A DNA stretch of 9,104 nucleotides from the IMG/VR virus record IMGVR_UViG_2703718773_000014. One strand, 5' to 3'. Below are positions 1 to 8,169 of this stretch, piece after piece. This DNA is from a virus (lineage: Duplodnaviria > Heunggongvirae > Uroviricota > Caudoviricetes). The position numbers and the translations under genes were made by a program. Position 1 is the first letter of the stretch. Every line of letters starts with the position of its first letter. The notes under the pieces were generated by a model. It was not told the origin of the DNA. It saw only the letters and a list, made by a program, of their open reading frames with translations, and ran no database searches.

Positions 1-24
1 CTCCAGGATTCCCGGGGCGGTTCA
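1..24 (-). mobile_element. Terminal 24 bp (left inverted repeat) of an IS3-family, IS629-like insertion sequence whose body lies left of the window
   Basis: Bases 1-24 are the reverse complement of TGAACCGCCCCGGGAATCCTGGAG, which I recognise as the IS629 IRL. The same 14-bp terminus TGAACCGCCCCGGG occurs in inverted form at 8945-8958. The name IS629 is from memory, not a search. Confidence 0.75.
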
Positions 25-41
25 GTGTGGTTTATTTTGAT

Positions 42-73
42 GCCCTTTTTCAGGGCTGGGATGTGTAAGAGCG
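42..73 (-). promoter_or_regulatory. nutR N-utilisation site (boxB 42-56, boxA 65-73, read on the minus strand)
   Basis: The minus strand reads CGCTCTTAC (boxA) ...GCCCTGAAAAAGGGC (boxB hairpin), matching lambda nutR as I remember it. It lies immediately downstream of cro, as expected. Confidence 0.8.
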
Positions 74-81
74 GGAATGTC

Positions 82-1434
<1,353 letters not shown>

Positions 1435-1484
1435 TCCCCACCTCAATCTCGATAACAAAAAAACAAACTATTTTCCGTTTAAAA

Positions 1485-1565
1485 ACAATGGAGTTTGTTT
1501 TTCACGCCCCTTTTTTACAATATTTCTTGTTTACAACATACAATCTTCCTTGTAATTTTAAGCCA
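1485..1565 (+). promoter_or_regulatory. OL operators (OL3 1485-1498, OL2 1517-1530, OL1 1540-1553) with pL promoter (-35 1530-1535, -10 1553-1558, start ~1565)
   Basis: Three ACAA-N6-TTGT sites: ACAATGGAGTTTGT, ACAATATTTCTTGT, ACAATCTTCCTTGT. -35 TTTACA and -10 TAATTT are 17 bp apart, followed by ATCAGCAGGACGCACTGACC, which matches the lambda pL transcript 5' end as I remember it. Confidence 0.75.
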
Positions 1566-1598
1566 TCAGCAGGACGCACTGACCACCATTGAAGGTGA

Positions 1599-1629
1599 GG
1601 CTCTTAAAAATTAAGCCCTGAAGAAGGGC
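1599..1629 (+). promoter_or_regulatory. nutL (boxA ~1599-1608, boxB hairpin 1615-1629)
   Basis: GCTCTTAAAAATTAA followed by GCCCTGAAGAAGGGC, the lambda nutL boxB inverted repeat as I remember it. It sits between pL and N. Confidence 0.85.
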
Positions 1630-1786
1630 AGCATTCAAAGCAGAAGGCTTTGGTGTGTGTGATACGAAACGAAGCATTGGCCGGAAGTGCGAATCCGGAT
1701 TAGCTGCCAATGTGCCATTGCGGGGTGTTTTCGTTCAGGACTACGACTCCCACACACAACCAAAGCTAACTGACAGGAGAATCCAG

Positions 1787-2110
1787 ATGGATGCACAAAC
1801 ACGCCGCCGCGAACGTCGCGCAGAGAAACAGGCTCAATGGAAAGCAGCAAATCCCCTGTTGGTTGGGGTAAGCGCTAAACCAGTTAACCGCCCTATTCTC
1901 TCGCTGAATCGCAAACCGAAATCACGAGTAGAAAGCGCACTGAATCCGATAGACCTTACGGTGCTGGCTGAATACCACGAACAGATTGAAAGCAACCTGC
2001 AACGTATTGAGCGCAAGAATCATCGAGTTTGGTATAGCAAGCCAGGTGAGTTCGGTATAACTTGTCAAGGAAGACAAAAGGTTAAAGGGGAATCCATTCC
2101 ATTGGCATGA
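1787..2110 (+). CDS. N: Antitermination protein N (107 aa)
   Basis: MDAQTRRRERRAEKQAQWKAANPLL... carries the arginine-rich motif and matches lambda N. AGGAGA RBS lies upstream. The track ORF start at 1655 is an upstream extension through nutL and is rejected. Confidence 0.92.
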   Translation: MDAQTRRRERRAEKQAQWKAANPLLVGVSAKPVNRPILSLNRKPKSRVESALNPIDLTVLAEYHEQIESNLQRIERKNHRVWYSKPGEFGITCQGRQKVKGESIPLA

Positions 2111-2118
2111 GGTACGTA

Positions 2119-2988
2119 ATGAAGAAGATTGATTACAAGTCCATACCAAAACCAATAGACTCAGCATCAGAGCGAAAAAAACACAAAAAAGAGGCTGAAA
2201 AATTAGCAAATTATATCAGTTTTATTAGAAACAATGCTCACGGCGATGGCGACAAGAAGTTGCTTTCAGATGCTCGGACCCAAGCGTTCGGTATACTTCG
2301 TAAGCAGATGCAATATCGTCTTCATCCTGGCTACATAATTGAAATTCGCCCTACTGAAAGACAATTGTTCTTATTAAACTCTGTCTTTGACTTTGTAAAC
2401 GTAGTTGGAGATCTTATCGACAGGTCTGTAGATAAGGATCCTGATACAAATAGTTTTCTTCTAACAAATAAAGAATACTTATATGGTAAATTCGGTATAA
2501 ACGGATGGCAAAAATATGTACGCTTCTTACGTGCATTCGTTGATGCGTATAAAAATTCCGACATGATTTATACATATTTGCCTGGTGGTGATAATTGTAC
2601 GCTTTCGGCAGACAATAGAATATTCATACCTGTACTTGGTCTTGGGCTGATTAATGCAGTAAATGAAAAAGATGTTATAATTGTTAAGCAGTGGCGAAAA
2701 TATGAGGGATATAGATATCTGCCATGCTTTGATATATTAAAAATACAGAATAAATTCTATGTAAAAATTAAATATAAAGAAGATATTTTCTTCCTCAGAA
2801 AAAACATAGATCTTTTACAAGAACTTTCTGGTACAATAGATGTCATCTTAGGTTCTAGGTTTATAAAAGAACTGAAAGAAAGCAGGTCTTTCTCTCGTGT
2901 AGAGATAAGCGAGTCAGAGTTATGGGGTATATCAAATAATCCTGTAAACCACGCTCACCAACGAAACCCAAACAAAAAGTGGTCATAA
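2119..2988 (+). CDS. Hypothetical protein (~289 aa; alternative start 2107 gives 293 aa), AT-rich, unknown function
   Basis: Long uninterrupted ORF. The ATG at 2107 overlaps the N stop (ATGA); the ATG at 2119 is preceded by GAGGT with a 5-nt spacer. Composition is visibly more AT-rich than the flanking genes. No motif I can recognise (no Walker A, no TM segments). Confidence 0.6.
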   Translation: MKKIDYKSIPKPIDSASERKKHKKEAEKLANYISFIRNNAHGDGDKKLLSDARTQAFGILRKQMQYRLHPGYIIEIRPTERQLFLLNSVFDFVNVVGDLIDRSVDKDPDTNSFLLTNKEYLYGKFGINGWQKYVRFLRAFVDAYKNSDMIYTYLPGGDNCTLSADNRIFIPVLGLGLINAVNEKDVIIVKQWRKYEGYRYLPCFDILKIQNKFYVKIKYKEDIFFLRKNIDLLQELSGTIDVILGSRFIKELKESRSFSRVEISESELWGISNNPVNHAHQRNPNKKWS

Positions 2989-3130
2989 CCCGCTCAGGCG
3001 GATTTCATTTTCACGCAAACAACAGAATAAACACAGCGCTGTGTATTCATTCCAACGAGTGAATACACGGAGCAATGTCGCTCGTAACTAAACAGGAGCC
3101 GACTTGTTCTGATTATTGGAAATCTTCTTT

Positions 3131-3158
3131 GCCCTCCAAGATGAGGGCGATTTTTTAT
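3131..3158 (+). terminator. Rho-independent terminator-like hairpin (GCCCTC-N6-GAGGGC followed by a T-run)
   Basis: Perfect 6-bp GC-rich stem 3131-3136/3143-3148, then GATTTTTTAT, just upstream of ea10. Confidence 0.6.
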
Positions 3159-3176
3159 CTGTGAGGATATGAACAG

Positions 3177-3545
3177 ATGTCAAACATCAAAAAATACATC
3201 ATTGATTACGACTGGAAAGCATCAATAGAAATTGAAATCGACCATGACGTAATGACAGAGGAAAAACTTCACCAGATTAATAATTTCTGGTCAGACTCTG
3301 AATACCGACTCAATAAACACGGCTCTGTATTAAATGCTGTATTAATCATGCTGGCGCAACATGCTCTGCTTATAGCAATTTCAAGCGACTTAAATGCATA
3401 TGGTGTTGTGTGTGAGTTCGACTGGAATGATGGAAATGGTCAGGAAGGATGGCCTCCAATGGATGGTAGTGAAGGAATAAGAATTACCGATATCGATACA
3501 TCAGGAATATTTGATTCAGATGATATGACTATCAAGGCCGCCTGA
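3177..3545 (+). CDS. ea10: Ea10-like early protein (122 aa)
   Basis: 122-aa ORF with the same length and position (between N and cIII) as lambda ea10. The sequence MSNIKKYIIDYDWK... is consistent with my memory of Ea10. GAGGA lies upstream. Confidence 0.75.
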   Translation: MSNIKKYIIDYDWKASIEIEIDHDVMTEEKLHQINNFWSDSEYRLNKHGSVLNAVLIMLAQHALLIAISSDLNAYGVVCEFDWNDGNGQEGWPPMDGSEGIRITDIDTSGIFDSDDMTIKAA

Positions 3546-3617
3546 GCGCGGCGTTACCGCATACCAATTACGCTTCACTCGAGGCGTTTTTCGTTATGTA
3601 TAAATAAGGAGCACACC

Positions 3618-3782
3618 ATGCAATATGCCATTGCAGGGTGGCCTGTTGCTGGCTGCCCTTCCGAATCTTTACTTGAACGAATCACCCGTAAATTACGTGA
3701 CGGATGGAAACGCCTTATCGACATACTTAATCAGCCAGGAGTCCCAAAAAATGGATCAAACAATTATGGCTATCCAGACTAA
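3618..3782 (+). CDS. cIII: CIII (54 aa, inhibitor of FtsH-mediated CII degradation)
   Basis: ATG at 3618 after AAGGAG. Translation MQYAIAGWPVAGCPSESLLERITRKLRDGWKRLIDILNQPG... matches lambda CIII. It is below the ORF-track length cutoff. Confidence 0.9.
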   Translation: MQYAIAGWPVAGCPSESLLERITRKLRDGWKRLIDILNQPGVPKNGSNNYGYPD

Positions 3783-3894
3783 ATTCACTATCGCCACTTT
3801 TATTGGCGATGAAAAGATGTTTCGTGAGGCCGTCGACGCTTATAAAAAATGGATATTAATACTGAAACTGAGATCAAGCAAAAGCATTCACTAA
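3751..3894 (+). CDS. kil: Kil (47 aa, host cell-division inhibitor)
   Basis: [47 protein letters not shown] matches lambda Kil. It overlaps the 3' end of cIII in another frame, as in lambda. The longer track ORF from 3625 is rejected. Confidence 0.88.
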
Positions 3895-4265
3895 CCCCCT
3901 TTCCTGTTTTCCTAATCAGCCCGGCATTTCGCGGGCGATATTTTCACAGCTATTTCAGGAGTTCGGCCATGAACGCTTATTACATTCAGGATCGTCTTGA
4001 GGCTCAGAGCTGGGCGCGTCACTACCAGCAGATAGCCCGTGAAGAGAAAGAGGCAGAACTGGCAGACGACATGGAAAAAGGCCTGCCCCAGCACCTGTTT
4101 GAATCGCTATGCATCGGTCATTTGCAACGCCACGGGGCCAGCAAAAAAGCCATTACCCGTGCGTTTGATGACGATGTTGAGTTTCAGGAGCGCATGGCAG
4201 AACACATCCGGTACATGGTTGAAACCATTGCTCACCATCAGGTTGATATTGATTCAGAGGTATAA
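3849..4265 (+). CDS. gam: Gam (RecBCD inhibitor); 138-aa long form, shorter form would start at the internal Met at 3969
   Basis: [79 protein letters not shown]... matches lambda Gam. Confidence 0.9.
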
Positions 4266-4270
4266 AACGG

Positions 4271-5056
4271 ATGAGTACAGCACTCGCAACGCTGGCAGGG
4301 AAGCTGGCTGAACGTGTCGGCATGGATTCTGTCGACCCACAGGAACTGATCACCACTCTTCGCCAGACGGCATTTAAAGGCGATGCCAGCGATGCGCAGT
4401 TCATCGCATTGTTGATCGTCGCCAACCAGTACGGCCTTAATCCGTGGACGAAAGAAATTTACGCCTTCCCTGATAAGCAGAACGGCATCGTTCCGGTGGT
4501 GGGCGTTGATGGCTGGTCCCGCATCATCAATGAAAACCAGCAGTTTGATGGCATGGACTTTGAGCAGGACAATGAATCCTGTACATGCCGGATTTACCGC
4601 AAGGACCGTAATCATCCGATCTGCGTTACCGAATGGATGGATGAATGCCGCCGCGAACCATTCAAAACCCGCGAAGGCAGAGAAATCACGGGGCCGTGGC
4701 AGTCGCATCCTAAACGGATGTTACGGCATAAAGCTATGATTCAGTGTGCCCGTCTGGCCTTCGGATTTGCTGGTATCTATGACAAGGATGAAGCCGAGCG
4801 CATTGTCGAAAATACTGCATACACTGCAGAACGCCAGCCGGAACGCGACATCACTCCGGTTAACGATGAAACCATGCAGGAGATTAACACTCTGCTAATC
4901 GCCCTGGATAAAACATGGGATGACGACTTATTGCCGCTCTGTTCCCAGATATTTCGCCGCGACATTCGCGCATCGTCAGAACTGACACAGGCCGAAGCAG
5001 TGAAAGCTCTTGGATTCCTGAAACAGAAAGCCACTGAGCAGAAGGTGGCAGCATGA
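4271..5056 (+). CDS. bet: Bet (Red-beta single-strand annealing protein, 261 aa)
   Basis: [68 protein letters not shown]... matches lambda Bet in sequence and length. Confidence 0.93.
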
Positions 5057-5733
5057 CACCGGACATTATCCTGCAGCGTACCGGGATCGACGTGAGAGCT
5101 GTCGAACAGGGGGATGATGCGTGGCACAAATTACGGCTCGGCGTCATCACAGCTTCAGAAGTTCATAACGTAATAGCAAAACCCCGCTCCGGAAAAAAGT
5201 GGCCTGACATGAAAATGTCCTACTTCCACACCCTGCTTGCTGAGGTTTGCACCGGTGTGGCTCCGGAAGTTAACGCTAAAGCGCTGGCCTGGGGAAAACA
5301 GTACGAGAACGACGCCAGAGCCCTGTTTGAGTTCACTTCCGGCGTGAATGTTACTGAATCACCGATCATCTATCGCGACGAAAGTATGCGTACCGCCTGC
5401 TCTCCAGATGGTTTATGCAGTGACGGCAACGGCCTTGAACTGAAATGCCCGTTTACCTCCCGGGATTTCATGAAGTTCCGGCTCGGTGGTTTCGAGGCCA
5501 TAAAGTCAGCTTACATGGCCCAGGTGCAGTACAGCATGTGGGTGACGCGAAAAGATGCCTGGTACTTTGCCAACTATGACCCGCGTATGAAGCGTGAAGG
5601 ACTGCATTATGTCGTGGTTGAGCGGGATGAAAAGTACATGGCGGGTTTTGACGAGATGGTGCCGGAGTTCATCGAAAAAATGGACGAGGCACTGGCTGAA
5701 ATTGGTTTTGTATTTGGGGAGCAATGGCGATGA
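5053..5733 (+). CDS. exo: Lambda exonuclease (Red-alpha, 226 aa)
   Basis: [73 protein letters not shown]... matches lambda Exo. Its start overlaps the bet stop (ATGA). Confidence 0.93.
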
Positions 5734-5912
5734 AGCATCCTCACGATAATATCCGGGTAGGTGCGATCACTTTCGTCTACTCCGTTACAAAGCGAGGCTG
5801 GGTATTTCCCGACCTTTCTGTTATCCAAAATCCACTGAAAGCCCAGCGGCTGGCTGAGGAGATAAATAATAAACGAGGGGCTGTATGCACAAAGCATCTC
5901 CTGTTGAGTTAA
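5730..5912 (+). CDS. orf60a: Orf60a-like small protein (60 aa)
   Basis: [27 protein letters not shown]... immediately downstream of and overlapping the exo stop, as in lambda. The track start at 5724 would add two residues. Confidence 0.75.
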
Positions 5913-6076
5913 GAACGAGCATTGAGATGGCACATAGCCTTGCTCAAATTGGAGTCAGGTTTGTGCCAATACCAGTAGAAACAGACGAAGAATTTCATAC
6001 GTTAGCCACATCCCTTTCACAAAAGCTGGAAATGATGGTGGCGAAAGCAGAAGCAGATGAGAGAGACCAGGTATGA
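5885..6076 (+). CDS. orf63: Orf63-like small protein (63 aa)
   Basis: 63-aa ORF overlapping the orf60a 3' end, with the same size and position as lambda orf63. Confidence 0.7.
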   Translation: MHKASPVELRTSIEMAHSLAQIGVRFVPIPVETDEEFHTLATSLSQKLEMMVAKAEADERDQV

Positions 6077-6086
6077 CAACCACTGA

Positions 6087-6368
6087 ATGCATTTTTCTGG
6101 CAGCGGGCTTCATATTCTGTGTGCTTATGCTTGCCGACATGGGGCTTGTTCAGTGACACCTCAGCAAGAAAACGCCCTTCGCAGCATTGCCCGTCAGGCT
6201 AATTCTGAAATCAAAAAAGCCAGACAGCAGTTTCCGGATAAAAACGTCGATGACATTTGCCGTAGCGTACTGAAGAAGCACCGCGAAACGGTAACGCTGA
6301 TGGGATTCACACCGACTCATTTAAGCCTGGCGATCGGCATGTTAAACGGCGTCTTTAAGGAACGGTGA
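6087..6368 (+). CDS. Hypothetical small protein in the lambda orf61 region; start uncertain (ATG 6087, or in-frame GTG 6153 giving 71 aa)
   Basis: ORF on the operon strand. The N-terminal 22 residues are hydrophobic and Cys-rich and may not be translated. I cannot confirm orf61 identity from memory. Confidence 0.45.
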   Translation: MHFSGSGLHILCAYACRHGACSVTPQQENALRSIARQANSEIKKARQQFPDKNVDDICRSVLKKHRETVTLMGFTPTHLSLAIGMLNGVFKER

Positions 6369-6466
6369 GCATGAAAAGCAAAATCATCAGGGAGCTACAG
6401 GCTCCTTTTTTATTGTTCGCATTCACCCTCAAGCGTATTAACCAACAATTCAGGGATTAATGGAAG

Positions 6467-6688
6467 ATGGCAGACATCATTGATTCAGCATCAGAAATTG
6501 AAGAATTACAGCGCAACACAGCAATAAAAATGCGCCGCCTGAACCACCAGGCTATATCTGCCACTCATTGTTGTGAGTGTGGCGATCCCATAGATGAGCG
6601 AAGACGCCTGGCCGTTCAGGGTTGTCGGACTTGTGCAAGTTGCCAGGAGGATCTGGAACTTATCAGTAAACAGAGAGGTTCGAAGTGA
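6467..6688 (+). CDS. orf73: TraR/DksA-family C4 zinc-finger protein (lambda orf73-like, 73 aa)
   Basis: CxxC-N17-CxxC motif (CCECGDPIDERRRLAVQGCRTCASCQ), characteristic of the DksA/TraR zinc finger. The 73-aa size matches lambda orf73. Confidence 0.8.
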   Translation: MADIIDSASEIEELQRNTAIKMRRLNHQAISATHCCECGDPIDERRRLAVQGCRTCASCQEDLELISKQRGSK

Positions 6689-6840
6689 GCGAAATTAACT
6701 AGAAGCCAAAGATAAAATCATCGCTGAGCAGGAGAAAATCGCTAACGGAGAAAAGACAGTAAGTCAGTATATGAAAACCGCATGATATCATCAGATAAAA
6801 ATCGATCGTAAAGCGAAATATTAATACCAGAATAAACGAG

Positions 6841-6864
6841 TCGAGGTAAATTATATTACCTCGA
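6841..6864. terminator. Hairpin (9-bp stem TCGAGGTAA / TTACCTCGA, 6-nt loop) between convergent genes; possible bidirectional terminator
   Basis: Perfect inverted repeat in the AT-rich spacer between the 3' ends of orf73 (+) and the 6899-7501 gene (-). The flanking A/T runs are only moderately U-rich on either strand. Confidence 0.4.
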
Positions 6865-6898
6865 TAAATTAACTAAAACTTGCCCGCTATATACTATC

Positions 6899-7501
6899 TC
6901 ATTCAGTATCATCACGCGCGGTCTGTGCATATGTTACTACCGCACCTAATGTATTAATTTTCTTTTCAACATAGATAATATTATCGTACTCATAATTGCC
7001 ATACGGATAGCAAATGCGAATATTCTCATGTAGATCGGGGTCATCCACCTCAGCTCCAGAACAACTTTTTGAACTACCGGAAGTATACCGATACGGTGCA
7101 ACATAAGACGATGTCTCTCCAGGCAAAAAATAAGTTAGTGTTGTAAGGGGTATAATCAGAAAAAATCCAGCAAATATGCACATCCCTGCATAAACCTTAA
7201 GGTATGCTGACAGACTCTTCCAGCCGCTTTGTTTTACTATCCCCTTCTTAACCCAAAACAGAGATAACAGAAAAGCTATTCCCATGCTAAACAGAATGTA
7301 ATAGTGGGATATACTCTGATTAAGAAACGTGACCCTGTAAATATCTGCCCGCCACCAGAAGAAAAGGAAAATAAAGATCAGGCCTGAAACTGTCATGCAA
7401 ATCAAATAAGGATACGAATCTTTTTTCATGTTTAGCGTCCATAAAATTTTTCCTGCCCCGGACAAATTTACCATCCATTTTTTGCGCAGAAAATAGCTCA
7501 T
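6899..7501 (-). CDS. Hypothetical integral membrane protein (up to 200 aa; alternative starts at 7474 and 7429), AT-rich, reverse-oriented
   Basis: Three hydrophobic segments (LICMTVSGLIFIFLFFWW; YYILFSMGIAFLLSLFWV; VYAGMCIFAGFFLIIPLTTLTYFL) followed by a ~75-aa Cys-containing hydrophilic C-terminal domain. It is on the strand opposite the pL operon and visibly AT-rich. No candidate start has a strong RBS. Confidence 0.6.
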   Translation of the reverse strand: MSYFLRKKWMVNLSGAGKILWTLNMKKDSYPYLICMTVSGLIFIFLFFWWRADIYRVTFLNQSISHYYILFSMGIAFLLSLFWVKKGIVKQSGWKSLSAYLKVYAGMCIFAGFFLIIPLTTLTYFLPGETSSYVAPYRYTSGSSKSCSGAEVDDPDLHENIRICYPYGNYEYDNIIYVEKKINTLGAVVTYAQTARDDTE

Positions 7502-7743
7502 TACTTACTGCACAATAATACACAAAATTGCGTAAATTTTTTGCATGGATTTTAGCTCTTTCAGCCGACGTTTAAGGGGTAAATAGCATTTCCTAAAAGC
7601 AACTGCACCAACCCAACAGAATGAGCTACCGCTTACGTTGAGAGCAAAAAAGTGTATAGCAGCAATGAACAGCATCCTCGCACTGACGAGGATTTCTTTT
7701 ATCTGAACTCGCTACGGCGGGTTTTGTTTTATGGAGATGATAA

Positions 7744-7911
7744 ATGCACTTCCGAGTCACAGGTGAATGGAATGGAGAACCATTCAACAGAGTTATCGAA
7801 GCAGAGAACATCAATGACTGCTATGACCACTGGATGATATGGGCGCAGATAGCACATGCAGACATAACCAATATTCGAATTGAAGAACTGAAAGAACACC
7901 AAGCCGCCTGA
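7744..7911 (+). CDS. orf55: Orf55-like small protein (55 aa) upstream of xis
   Basis: ATG at 7744 preceded by GGAG. Translation MHFRVTGEWNGEPFNRVIEAENINDCYDHWMIWAQIAHADITNIRIEELKEHQAA. It is below the ORF-track cutoff; size and position match lambda orf55. Confidence 0.6.
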   Translation: MHFRVTGEWNGEPFNRVIEAENINDCYDHWMIWAQIAHADITNIRIEELKEHQAA

Positions 7912-7926
7912 TGGCGGCTTTTTCTT
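7903..7926 (+). terminator. Rho-independent terminator-like hairpin (GCCGCC-TGAT-GGCGGC followed by TTTTTCTT)
   Basis: Perfect 6-bp GC stem with a 4-nt loop and an immediate T-run, overlapping the orf55 stop codon. Confidence 0.65.
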
Positions 7927-7950
7927 GCGTGTAATTGCGGAGACTTTGCG

Positions 7951-8169
7951 ATGTACTTGACACTTCAGGAGTGGAACGCACGCCAGCGACGCCCAAGAAG
8001 CCTTGAAACAGTTCGTCGATGGGTGCGCGAATGCAGGATATTCCCTCCTCCGGTTAAGGATGGAAGAGAGTATCTGTTCCACGAATCAGCGGTAAAGGTT
8101 GACTTAAATCGACCAGTAACAGGTAGCCTTTTGAAGAGGATCAGAAATGGGAAGAAGGCGAAGTCATGA
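7951..8169 (+). CDS. xis: Excisionase Xis (72 aa)
   Basis: MYLTLQEWNARQRRPRSLETVRRWVRECRIFPPPVKDGREYLFHESAVKVDLNRPV... matches lambda Xis. Its 3' end overlaps the int start. Confidence 0.93.
   Translation: MYLTLQEWNARQRRPRSLETVRRWVRECRIFPPPVKDGREYLFHESAVKVDLNRPVTGSLLKRIRNGKKAKS

What the first reader, a model, noticed from the sequence alone, without database searches (positions are those of the whole stretch)
1..81. IS inserted immediately downstream of nutR, at the tR1/cII boundary
Reading the minus strand, cro is followed by boxA and boxB of nutR and then, within about 17 bp, by the IS terminus. In lambda the sequence after nutR continues into tR1 and cII. Here cII, O, P, Q and the late genes are absent from the window. 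That leaves cI, N and the Red genes without the replication, lysis and structural modules nearby.
Basis: partly seen in the sequence, partly recalled or inferred. Interest (0 to 1): 0.4.

Follow-up and report, generated by a model that had tools for sequence, protein, structure and literature searches.

The report
IS629 insertion after nutR of 434-like prophage
A common E. coli jumping gene (IS629) has landed just after the nutR antitermination site of a phage-434-like prophage; the window simply stops 24 bases into it, so the "missing" replication and late genes are a window-edge effect, not evidence of loss, and the whole thing is ordinary.

Summary
On the minus strand, cro (82-297) is followed by boxA (66-73), boxB (42-56) and 17 nt (25-41). 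Then come the last 24 nt of an IS629/IS1203-type IS3-family element (1-24, its left inverted repeat). Window 25-1100 is 100% identical to phage 434, whose record annotates nutR at these bases. More than 200 complete E. coli genomes align up to position 25 and stop there. An independent SRA assembly carries the same junction, so it is real.

The window ends 24 nt into the IS, and at its other end 160 nt into a second IS629 copy that truncates int. It looks like a short-read contig broken at repeats, so the absence of cII-O-P-Q says nothing about loss. Near-identical sister contigs and every uninterrupted relative have cII-O-P directly after nutR. Of five other IS629-type insertions examined in this prophage family, four are simple 1310-bp insertions with 3-bp duplications. 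One has a 608-bp adjacent deletion, and none lost the right arm.

The most likely reading (about 0.7) is a simple insertion with cII 62 nt beyond the IS. I could not read the far side. This is a known kind of event and of low interest.

The parts
1..24 (-). Terminal 24 nt (left inverted repeat, IRL) of an IS629/IS1203-type IS3-family element. The element lies to the left of the window. Its transposase genes point the same way as pR transcription.
   Evidence: 23/24 to the IRL of IS629 in phage PA4, and 29/30 when extended by contig L004; only 22/24 to the IRR. Homology to 200+ genomes ends at 24/25.
25..41 (-). The 17-nt remnant of the nutR-to-cII spacer (ATCAAAATAAACCACAC). By homology to lambda this is the start of rutB of the Rho-dependent terminator tR1. 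The first 3 nt next to the IS (CAC, or GTG on the plus strand) are the expected target-site duplication.
   Evidence: Identical to phage 434 and to uninterrupted prophages, which continue CTATGGTGTATGC... into cII. The rutB assignment rests on established lambda knowledge and was not tested here.
42..56 (-). nutR boxB hairpin (GCCCTGAAAAAGGGC)
   Evidence: Annotated 'nutR' stem-loop in phage 434 OL657226.1 at the homologous bases. Folds as a 5-bp stem with a 5-nt loop.
66..73 (-). nutR boxA (CGCTCTTA)
   Evidence: Annotated 'boxA right' in phage 434. Pattern search: 1 match, 0 expected.
82..297 (-). cro, 434 type, 71 aa
   Evidence: 100% identical to phage 434. Pfam HTH_3, E = 2.7e-13.
312..375 (.). 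OR1-OR3 with the divergent promoters pR and pRM
   Evidence: Positions transferred from the phage 434 annotation across a 100% identical stretch.
401..1033 (+). cI repressor, 434 type, 210 aa, intact
   Evidence: 100% identical to phage 434. Pfam HTH_3 plus Peptidase_S24.
1615..1629 (+). nutL boxB (GCCCTGAAGAAGGGC)
   Evidence: Inverted-repeat partner of nutR boxB (I3). 'nutL' stem-loop in the 434 annotation.
1787..2110 (+). Antiterminator N, the protein that acts at nutR and nutL
   Evidence: Pfam N36 arginine-rich peptide, E = 1.9e-26. Annotated as N in relatives.
8147..8947 (+). int truncated by the second IS: 266 of 356 codons, with the stop codon supplied by the TGA that begins the IS
   Evidence: Relatives have a 1071-bp int. 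The Pfam Phage_integrase match covers only profile positions 2-86 of 172. The same truncated protein occurs on 23 public contigs.
8945..9104 (-). Right end (IRR and the 3' end of orfB) of a second IS629-type copy, in the same orientation as the left one
   Evidence: 157/160 to the IRR end of PA4 IS629. Alignment. The same int::IS junction is present in L004 and L006-L011.

Best explanation
The window is the left arm (nutR-cro-cI-N-Red-xis-int') of a phage-434-like prophage. A 1.3-kb IS629/IS1203-type element (IS3 family) transposed into the spacer between nutR and cII. The insertion point is 17 nt after boxB and 62 nt before the cII start codon. The element's left end faces nutR, so pR transcripts run into it in the sense direction of the transposase genes.

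The window stops 24 nt into that IS, and at its other end inside a second, directly oriented IS629 copy that truncates int. The most likely reason is that it is a short-read contig broken at a multi-copy repeat. The absence of cII, O, P, Q and the late genes from the window is therefore a boundary effect. The most likely state is a simple insertion with a 3-bp GTG/CAC duplication, with cII-O-P resuming immediately beyond the IS.

The following functional consequences are inferred, not shown:
- The IS puts 1.3 kb between pR/nutR and the delayed-early right operon.
- It splits the tR1 rut site.
- It separates pRE, which lies on the far side, from cI.
- Immunity (cI, OR, OL), N, nutL and the Red genes stay intact, because cI is maintained from pRM.
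- Together with the truncated integrase, which lacks the C-terminal half of its catalytic domain, the prophage is expected to be immune but unable to excise. At best it would be impaired in replication and late gene expression, i.e. a decaying, 'grounded' prophage.
For: nutR and the IS end:
- nutR is identical to that of phage 434, and the junction is exact.
- The IS end matches IS629. RefSeq names related copies 'IS3-like element IS1203/IS629/IS3411 family transposase'.
- The same junction occurs in an independent assembly, Logan SRR21743773 contig L004. That contig is also bounded by about 30 nt of IS at both ends, as expected for k = 31 contigs ending in a repeat.

What relatives show beyond nutR:
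- The sister contig L003, with 1 mismatch and 1 gap in 8919 bp and broken at the same int site, has an uninterrupted nutR-cII-O-P.
- C7 and C3 carry an independent insertion 5 bp away with a GTT duplication and an intact cII-O-P-ren-nin-Q.
- Other IS629-type insertions in this prophage family are 1310 bp with 3-bp duplications: kil/gam ACC, exo TAA, gene O GAT.
- Ten of ten contexts of this cro have cII next to it.

Literature:
- 62% of IS629 copies in O157 genomes lie in prophages or prophage-like elements (PMC3271280).
- IS629 is the main source of variation within Stx phage types (PMC4587872).

Int truncation.
Against: - The far side was never seen. No collection searched holds this junction on a contig that crosses the IS.
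- One of the five comparison events has a 608-bp deletion next to the IS and no duplication (O145:H28 RM12761).
- Only 24 nt (30 nt in L004) of the left IS are visible, so a full-length copy is inferred.
- All functional consequences (polarity, excision defect, non-inducibility) are inferred from the roles of lambda and 434 genes, not measured.
Confidence: 0.7

Rival explanations
1. One reading: an IS-associated deletion or rearrangement. After or during insertion, DNA next to the IS was lost or moved. This could happen by an IEE/transposase-driven adjacent deletion, or by homologous recombination with another IS629 copy. In that case cII and some or all of O, P, Q and the late genes are no longer adjacent, leaving an isolated immunity, N and Red block.
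For: - The O145:H28 strains RM12761 and RM13516 carry an IS629-type copy in gene O of the same prophage family, with 608 bp missing next to it and no target duplication.
- IEE-dependent deletions adjacent to IS629 range from a few nucleotides to more than 40 kb (PMC9943667).
- This lineage has at least two IS629 copies in the prophage, and STEC genomes have many more. That provides substrates for recombination.
- Nothing in the window excludes this reading.
Against: - Four of the five comparison insertions are simple, and none removed the right arm.
- The nearest sister contig still has cII-O-P.
- The absence of those genes from the window is fully explained by the window ending inside the IS.
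Confidence: 0.24
2. The 8.9-kb segment is part of a composite, IS629-flanked unit that moved or was amplified as a block. Under this reading neither flank is the original prophage context.
For: The two IS ends bracket the segment in direct orientation, with usable outer ends.
Against: - The int::IS junction is shared by contigs whose nutR-cII-O-P is uninterrupted (L003). That IS therefore sits in the ordinary prophage at its normal place.
- No plasmid or second-site copy of the junction was found.
Confidence: 0.03
3. The junction is an assembly artefact (a chimeric join to a repeat end), or bases 1-24 are a solo IS-end remnant rather than a full element.
For: Only 24 nt are visible. The 160 nt of IS at the window's right end differ at 7 positions from the IS at the same junction in other assemblies. 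This shows that repeat sequence in this contig is not copy-specific.
Against: - An independent run's assembly has the identical junction, and it extends 6 nt further in perfect register with IRL.
- Both contigs terminate there, as expected when the sequence continues into a multi-copy repeat.
Confidence: 0.03

Closest known systems
IS629 / IS1203 / IS3411 (IS3 family) insertions in lambdoid prophages of Shiga-toxin-producing E. coli
   Same: Same element: the ends are 23/24 and 157/160 identical to IS629 of phage PA4. Same habitat: 62% of O157 IS629 copies lie in prophages or prophage-like elements (PMC3271280), and IS629 is the main source of variation within Stx2a phage types (PMC4587872). 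In relatives the copies have the same size (1310 bp) and the same 3-bp duplications.
   Different: This particular site, 17 nt after nutR boxB of a 434-type prophage, is in none of 5426 complete E. coli genomes. It was found only in one Logan assembly. The insertion is intergenic in a regulatory spacer and does not disrupt a gene.
The IS629-type insertion in E. coli strains C7 and C3 (NZ_CP010240.1, NZ_CP010119.1)
   Same: Same prophage family, same nutR-cII spacer and same IS family (95.95% identical to PA4 IS629), 5 bp from the window's site.
   Different: It is an independent event. The orientation is opposite (IRR faces nutR), the duplication is GTT rather than the predicted GTG, and the end sequence differs (GGAAACC against GGATTCC). 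There the far side is visible and intact: cII-O-P-ren-nin-Q.
Classical polar IS insertions in the lambda pR operon (lambda r32, IS2 between cro and the replication genes; lambda r14, IS1 in cII). Recalled from my own knowledge; no paper was found in the library.
   Same: An IS sits between pR/nutR and O-P. It is expected to be polar on replication genes, with polarity at least partly overcome by N-modified, terminator-resistant RNA polymerase.
   Different: These involve different IS families and were laboratory-selected phage mutants, not natural prophage decay. No expression data exist for the present case.
Defective ('grounded') lambdoid prophages that keep immunity and recombination genes, reviewed in PMC6379469 (seen in the search listing only, not read)
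   Same: Intact repressor, N and Red genes, with integrase inactivated by an IS. The prophage can no longer excise.
   Different: Here it is not shown that any module has actually been lost. Only int is demonstrably damaged.

Membership tests
lambda-type N-utilisation site (nutR) | boxA consensus CGCTCTTA followed by a 15-nt boxB hairpin with a GAAAA loop | tested here: met
   Exact match at 66-73 and 42-56 on the minus strand, with 0 expected by chance. Hairpin predicted. Annotated as nutR and boxA in phage 434 at identical sequence.
lambda-type N-utilisation site (nutR) | Located in the pR transcript just downstream of cro, with a cognate N gene carrying an arginine-rich boxB-binding peptide | tested here: met
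   The cro stop codon is 8 nt upstream of boxA. N at 1787-2110 matches Pfam N36 with E = 1.9e-26. nutL boxB is at 1615-1629.
IS629 (IS3 family) | Terminal inverted repeats TGAACCGCCCCGG...; at least 95% identity to a reference IS629 | tested here: met
   Over the visible parts only: 1-24 is 23/24 to IRL (29/30 with L004), and 8945-9104 is 157/160 to the IRR end of IS629 in phage PA4 (copy defined in PMC4587872).
IS629 (IS3 family) | Full element of about 1310 bp with orfA and orfB joined by programmed -1 frameshifting | not testable with these tools
   The window holds only 24 and 160 nt of the two copies. Full 1310-bp copies with an annotated programmed frameshift are seen in relatives.
Simple transposition (as opposed to deletion or rearrangement) | A 3-4 bp direct target duplication and contiguous target sequence on both sides | not testable with these tools
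   The far junction is outside the window, and no contig crossing the IS was found. Predicted far junction...CACCATAGGTG|TGAACCGCCCCGGGTTTCC. In relatives, 4 of 5 events meet this feature and 1 does not.
Phage 434 immunity type | 434 cI and cro with their operators | tested here: met
   Window 25-1100 is 100% identical to OL657226.1, and 25-8944 is 99.4% identical.

The most novel reading that the evidence does not exclude
The short palindrome-containing stretch just after nutR boxB (ACACC-TAT-GGTGT in the tR1 region) may be a preferred or selected landing site for IS629-type elements in 434/lambda-like prophages. Two independent insertions lie 5 bp apart in opposite orientations: one in the window's lineage and one in C7/C3. 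Such insertions would uncouple the lethal replication and lysis genes from pR while sparing immunity, N and Red, which would be a recurrent route to prophage domestication.
Probability: 0.1. Interest if true: 0.4.

Novelty: already known. Interest (0 to 1): 0.12.

Why it matters
It matters little beyond bookkeeping. The case shows that a contig or window ending in a multi-copy IS must not be read as a gene loss. It adds one more IS629 site to a 434-like prophage that is repeatedly hit by this element in cattle- and STEC-associated E. coli: kil/gam, exo, gene O twice, int, and the nutR-cII spacer twice. For strain phenotype, the combination of an int truncation and an IS between nutR and cII predicts a lysogen that is still immune to 434-type phages and still carries inducible N, Kil and Red functions. 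It is unlikely to release phage.

Tried and rejected
- I scanned three collections for the exact junction: species-representative genomes, IMG/VR viral contigs and JGI metagenome contigs. All returned 0 hits.
- I scanned genomes and metagenomes with a gapped pattern for any IS629 end within 30 nt of this boxB. Both returned 0 hits.
- I ran megablast of the window against 5426 complete E. coli genomes. None holds the window's own junction, so the far side could not be read there.
- I used a chimeric query (both IS ends plus boxB-cro) to list every complete genome with an IS629-type end near this cro. Only C7/C3 have one in the spacer. O157:H7 2571 and O145:H28 RM12761/RM13516 have one in gene O.
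- A look-up of the truncated Int found the twin contig L004, but it breaks in the IS as well.
- A look-up of Cro gave 10 contexts, all with cII adjacent and none with an IS.
- I considered looking up cII, O or P by exact sequence to find the far-side contig of the same sample. I rejected this. It needs a costly homology search first, the proteins occur on thousands of contigs, and the tool cannot be restricted to one sample.
- A promoter and terminator scan of a full IS copy with the same IRL variant gave nothing above the shuffled expectation. I therefore make no claim about intrinsic terminators or outward promoters.
- A literature search for the classical lambda r32/IS2 case found nothing relevant. 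Ooka et al. 2009 (PMC2765283) is not held.
- Rfam has no nut-site family. Its only hit in the window is the cIII thermoregulator.

Full report
**Observation.**
Read on the minus strand, the first 300 bases of the window contain five features in order:
- a 71-codon cro (82-297, stop codon at 82-84);
- boxA CGCTCTTA (66-73);
- boxB GCCCTGAAAAAGGGC (42-56);
- 17 nt, ATCAAAATAAACCACAC (25-41);
- TGAACCGCCCCGGGAATCCTGGAG (24-1).

The combined boxA/boxB pattern occurs once in the window and never in 200 shuffles. boxB folds into the expected 5-bp stem with a pentaloop. Window 25-1100 is 100% identical to Escherichia phage 434 (OL657226.1). Its curated record annotates a 'nutR' stem-loop, 'boxA right' and Cro at exactly the homologous bases.

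**The IS end is real and is IS629-type.**
- Megablast against 5426 complete E. coli genomes gives more than 200 genomes that align from window position 25 onward and not before. An alignment with uninterrupted relatives shows the break exactly at 24/25.
- PMC4587872 defines an IS629 copy in phage PA4 (KP682372, nt 24,350-25,659). I fetched it.
- The window's bases 1-24 are the reverse complement of that copy's left inverted repeat at 23/24. The window's last 160 bases (8945-9104) are the reverse complement of its right end at 157/160.
- RefSeq names related copies 'IS3-like element IS1203 / IS629 / IS3411 family transposase'.
- PMC3271280 describes IS629 sub-types that differ by 4-5%. This fits the roughly 96% identity between PA4 IS629 and the copies in C7, O103:H2 CEC12044 and strain 2015C-3163.
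- The left IS has its IRL next to nutR, so pR transcription would enter it in the sense direction of orfA and orfB.

**Position relative to phage features.**
Transferring the phage 434 annotation across the identical sequence:
- The insertion point is 17 nt after boxB and 62 nt before the cII start codon.
- The cII ribosome-binding site, pRE, oop, ori, O and P all lie on the far side.
- By homology to lambda (my own knowledge: the tR1 rut site is split into rutA and rutB by boxB, and the termination end points lie just before cII), the IS sits inside rutB. That is upstream of the tR1 release sites rather than at a tR1/cII 'boundary'.

**What lies beyond the IS.**
The other end of the window is also inside an IS629-type copy (8945-9104). 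That copy has the same orientation as the left one and interrupts int. The window is therefore exactly the 8920 bp between two copies of a multi-copy repeat, which is the signature of a short-read contig.

A look-up of the truncated Int protein found a Logan contig, SRR21743773_143 (L004, 8979 bp). It has the same two junctions, about 30 nt of IS at each end, and one mismatch in 8968 bp. This shows that the junction is real and that assemblies break there.

I searched for the junction in species-representative genomes, IMG/VR and JGI metagenomes, both as an exact string and as a gapped pattern. I found nothing. No complete E. coli genome has it.

**Indirect evidence on the far side.**
- Every uninterrupted relative examined has cII-O-P-ren-nin-Q directly after nutR. 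Ten of ten diverse contexts of this exact Cro have cII 120 nt downstream.
- Contig L003 (GCA_022650935.1) differs from the window by one mismatch and one gap in 8919 bp and breaks at the same int position. It has an uninterrupted nutR-cII-O-P. The nutR insertion is therefore a recent event in a lineage whose immediate relatives have the right operon in place.
- Strains C7 and C3 have an independent IS629-type insertion 5 bp away, in the opposite orientation, with a GTT duplication. cII through Q are intact beyond it.
- Other IS629-type insertions in this prophage family are 1310 bp with 3-bp duplications: kil/gam ACC, exo TAA, and gene O in O157:H7 strain 2571 GAT.
- In O145:H28 RM12761 and RM13516, the copy in gene O has a 608-bp adjacent deletion and no duplication.

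In total, four of five comparison events are simple, one has a small adjacent deletion, and none lost the right arm. IS629 with the IS-excision enhancer is known to cause adjacent deletions of up to more than 40 kb (PMC9943667), so loss cannot be excluded. My estimates are about 0.7 for a simple insertion (predicted far junction ...CACCATAGGTG|TGAACCGCCCCGGGTTTCC, duplication GTG), about 0.24 for an adjacent deletion or rearrangement, and a few percent for the composite-unit and artefact readings.

**State of the prophage and likely consequences.**
Window 25-8944 is 99.4% identical to phage 434 over the whole left arm. The following are present:
- cI, cro and the OR sites;
- hex and nutL;
- N (Pfam N36);
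- the Nun-like gene;
- cIII with its RNA thermoregulator (Rfam);
- kil, gam, bet, exo and xis.

Int is cut after codon 266 of 356. The Pfam integrase match stops at profile position 86 of 172, so the C-terminal half of the catalytic domain is missing. By established knowledge that half carries the catalytic tyrosine.

Inferred consequences:
- Immunity is maintained from pRM.
- On induction, pL functions (N, Kil, Red) are expressed.
- pR transcripts run through cro and nutR into the IS.
- If cII-O-P are still there, their expression depends on N-modified polymerase reading through 1.3 kb of IS. pRE is separated from cI.
- Excision should fail.

A consensus scan of a full IS copy with the same IRL variant found no terminator or promoter signal above the shuffled expectation. 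I make no claim about these.

**Comparison with what is known.**
This is a typical IS629 insertion into a lambdoid prophage in a cattle- or STEC-associated E. coli background. 62% of O157 IS629 copies lie in prophages or prophage-like elements (PMC3271280). IS629 copy number and position are the main variation within Stx2a phage types (PMC4587872). The functional analogue is the classical polar IS insertion in the lambda pR operon (lambda r32/IS2, r14/IS1). I recall these from my own knowledge and could not find a source for them in the library.

**Verdict.**
The kind of event is already known and the interest is low.

The one mildly unusual point is two independent IS629-type insertions 5 bp apart on a small palindrome. 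The statistical support is weak. Roughly 3 independent events lie within about 830 bp on the cII side in complete genomes, and one of them is within 5 bp, giving p of about 0.04. That estimate is biased by how I searched.

Noticed in passing
window 8945-9104 (and int 8147-8947): A second IS629-type end (IRR side, same orientation as the left copy) cuts int after codon 266 of 356, and the IS's first TGA supplies the stop codon. The same int::IS junction is on at least 7 draft or Logan contigs, and the truncated protein is on 23 contigs. No complete E. coli genome examined was seen to carry it.
   Followed up: partly
window 8969-9104 versus L008 2771-2906 and L007: The IS sequence at the identical int junction differs at 7 of 160 positions between the window and other assemblies. 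The window's version is closer to O157-type IS629. This suggests a collapsed or consensus repeat sequence at the contig end, or conversion between IS copies.
   Followed up: partly
L001 (NZ_CP010240.1, strain C7) 7381-8690; also strain C3: An independent IS629-type insertion in the same nutR-cII spacer. It is 5 bp from the window's site, in the opposite orientation, with a GTT duplication and cII-O-P intact beyond it. Both sites lie on or next to the small palindrome ACACC-TAT-GGTGT. This is a possible target preference, with weak support.
   Followed up: partly
L017 (NZ_CP007133.1, O145:H28 RM12761) 2391-3700; same in RM13516: An IS629-type copy in replication gene O with 608 bp of O missing next to it and no target duplication. 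This is an IS-adjacent deletion in the same prophage family. Its IRL variant (GGATTCCC) is the same as the window's.
   Followed up: yes
L016 (NZ_CP038425.1, O157:H7 strain 2571) 2391-3700; L002 12872-14181; L014 9872-11181 and 12462-13771: Further simple IS629/IS1203 insertions in this prophage family: gene O (duplication GAT), the kil/gam spacer (ACC) and exo (TAA). The prophage is a repeated target of this IS in several STEC lineages.
   Followed up: yes
window 3605-3663 (+): Rfam Lambda_thermo (the cIII mRNA thermoregulator), 88.5 bits against a gathering score of 50. It overlaps the start of cIII.
   Followed up: no
window 2119-2988 (+) and 6899-7501 (-): Two ORFs without Pfam matches. 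The 289-aa gene after N is annotated in phage 434 as a 'Nun C-terminal peptide-containing protein'. The other is a 200-aa minus-strand hypothetical gene between the Red region and xis. The single mismatch between the window and L004 may fall in the 200-aa gene, since L004's gene call there is 176 aa.
   Followed up: no
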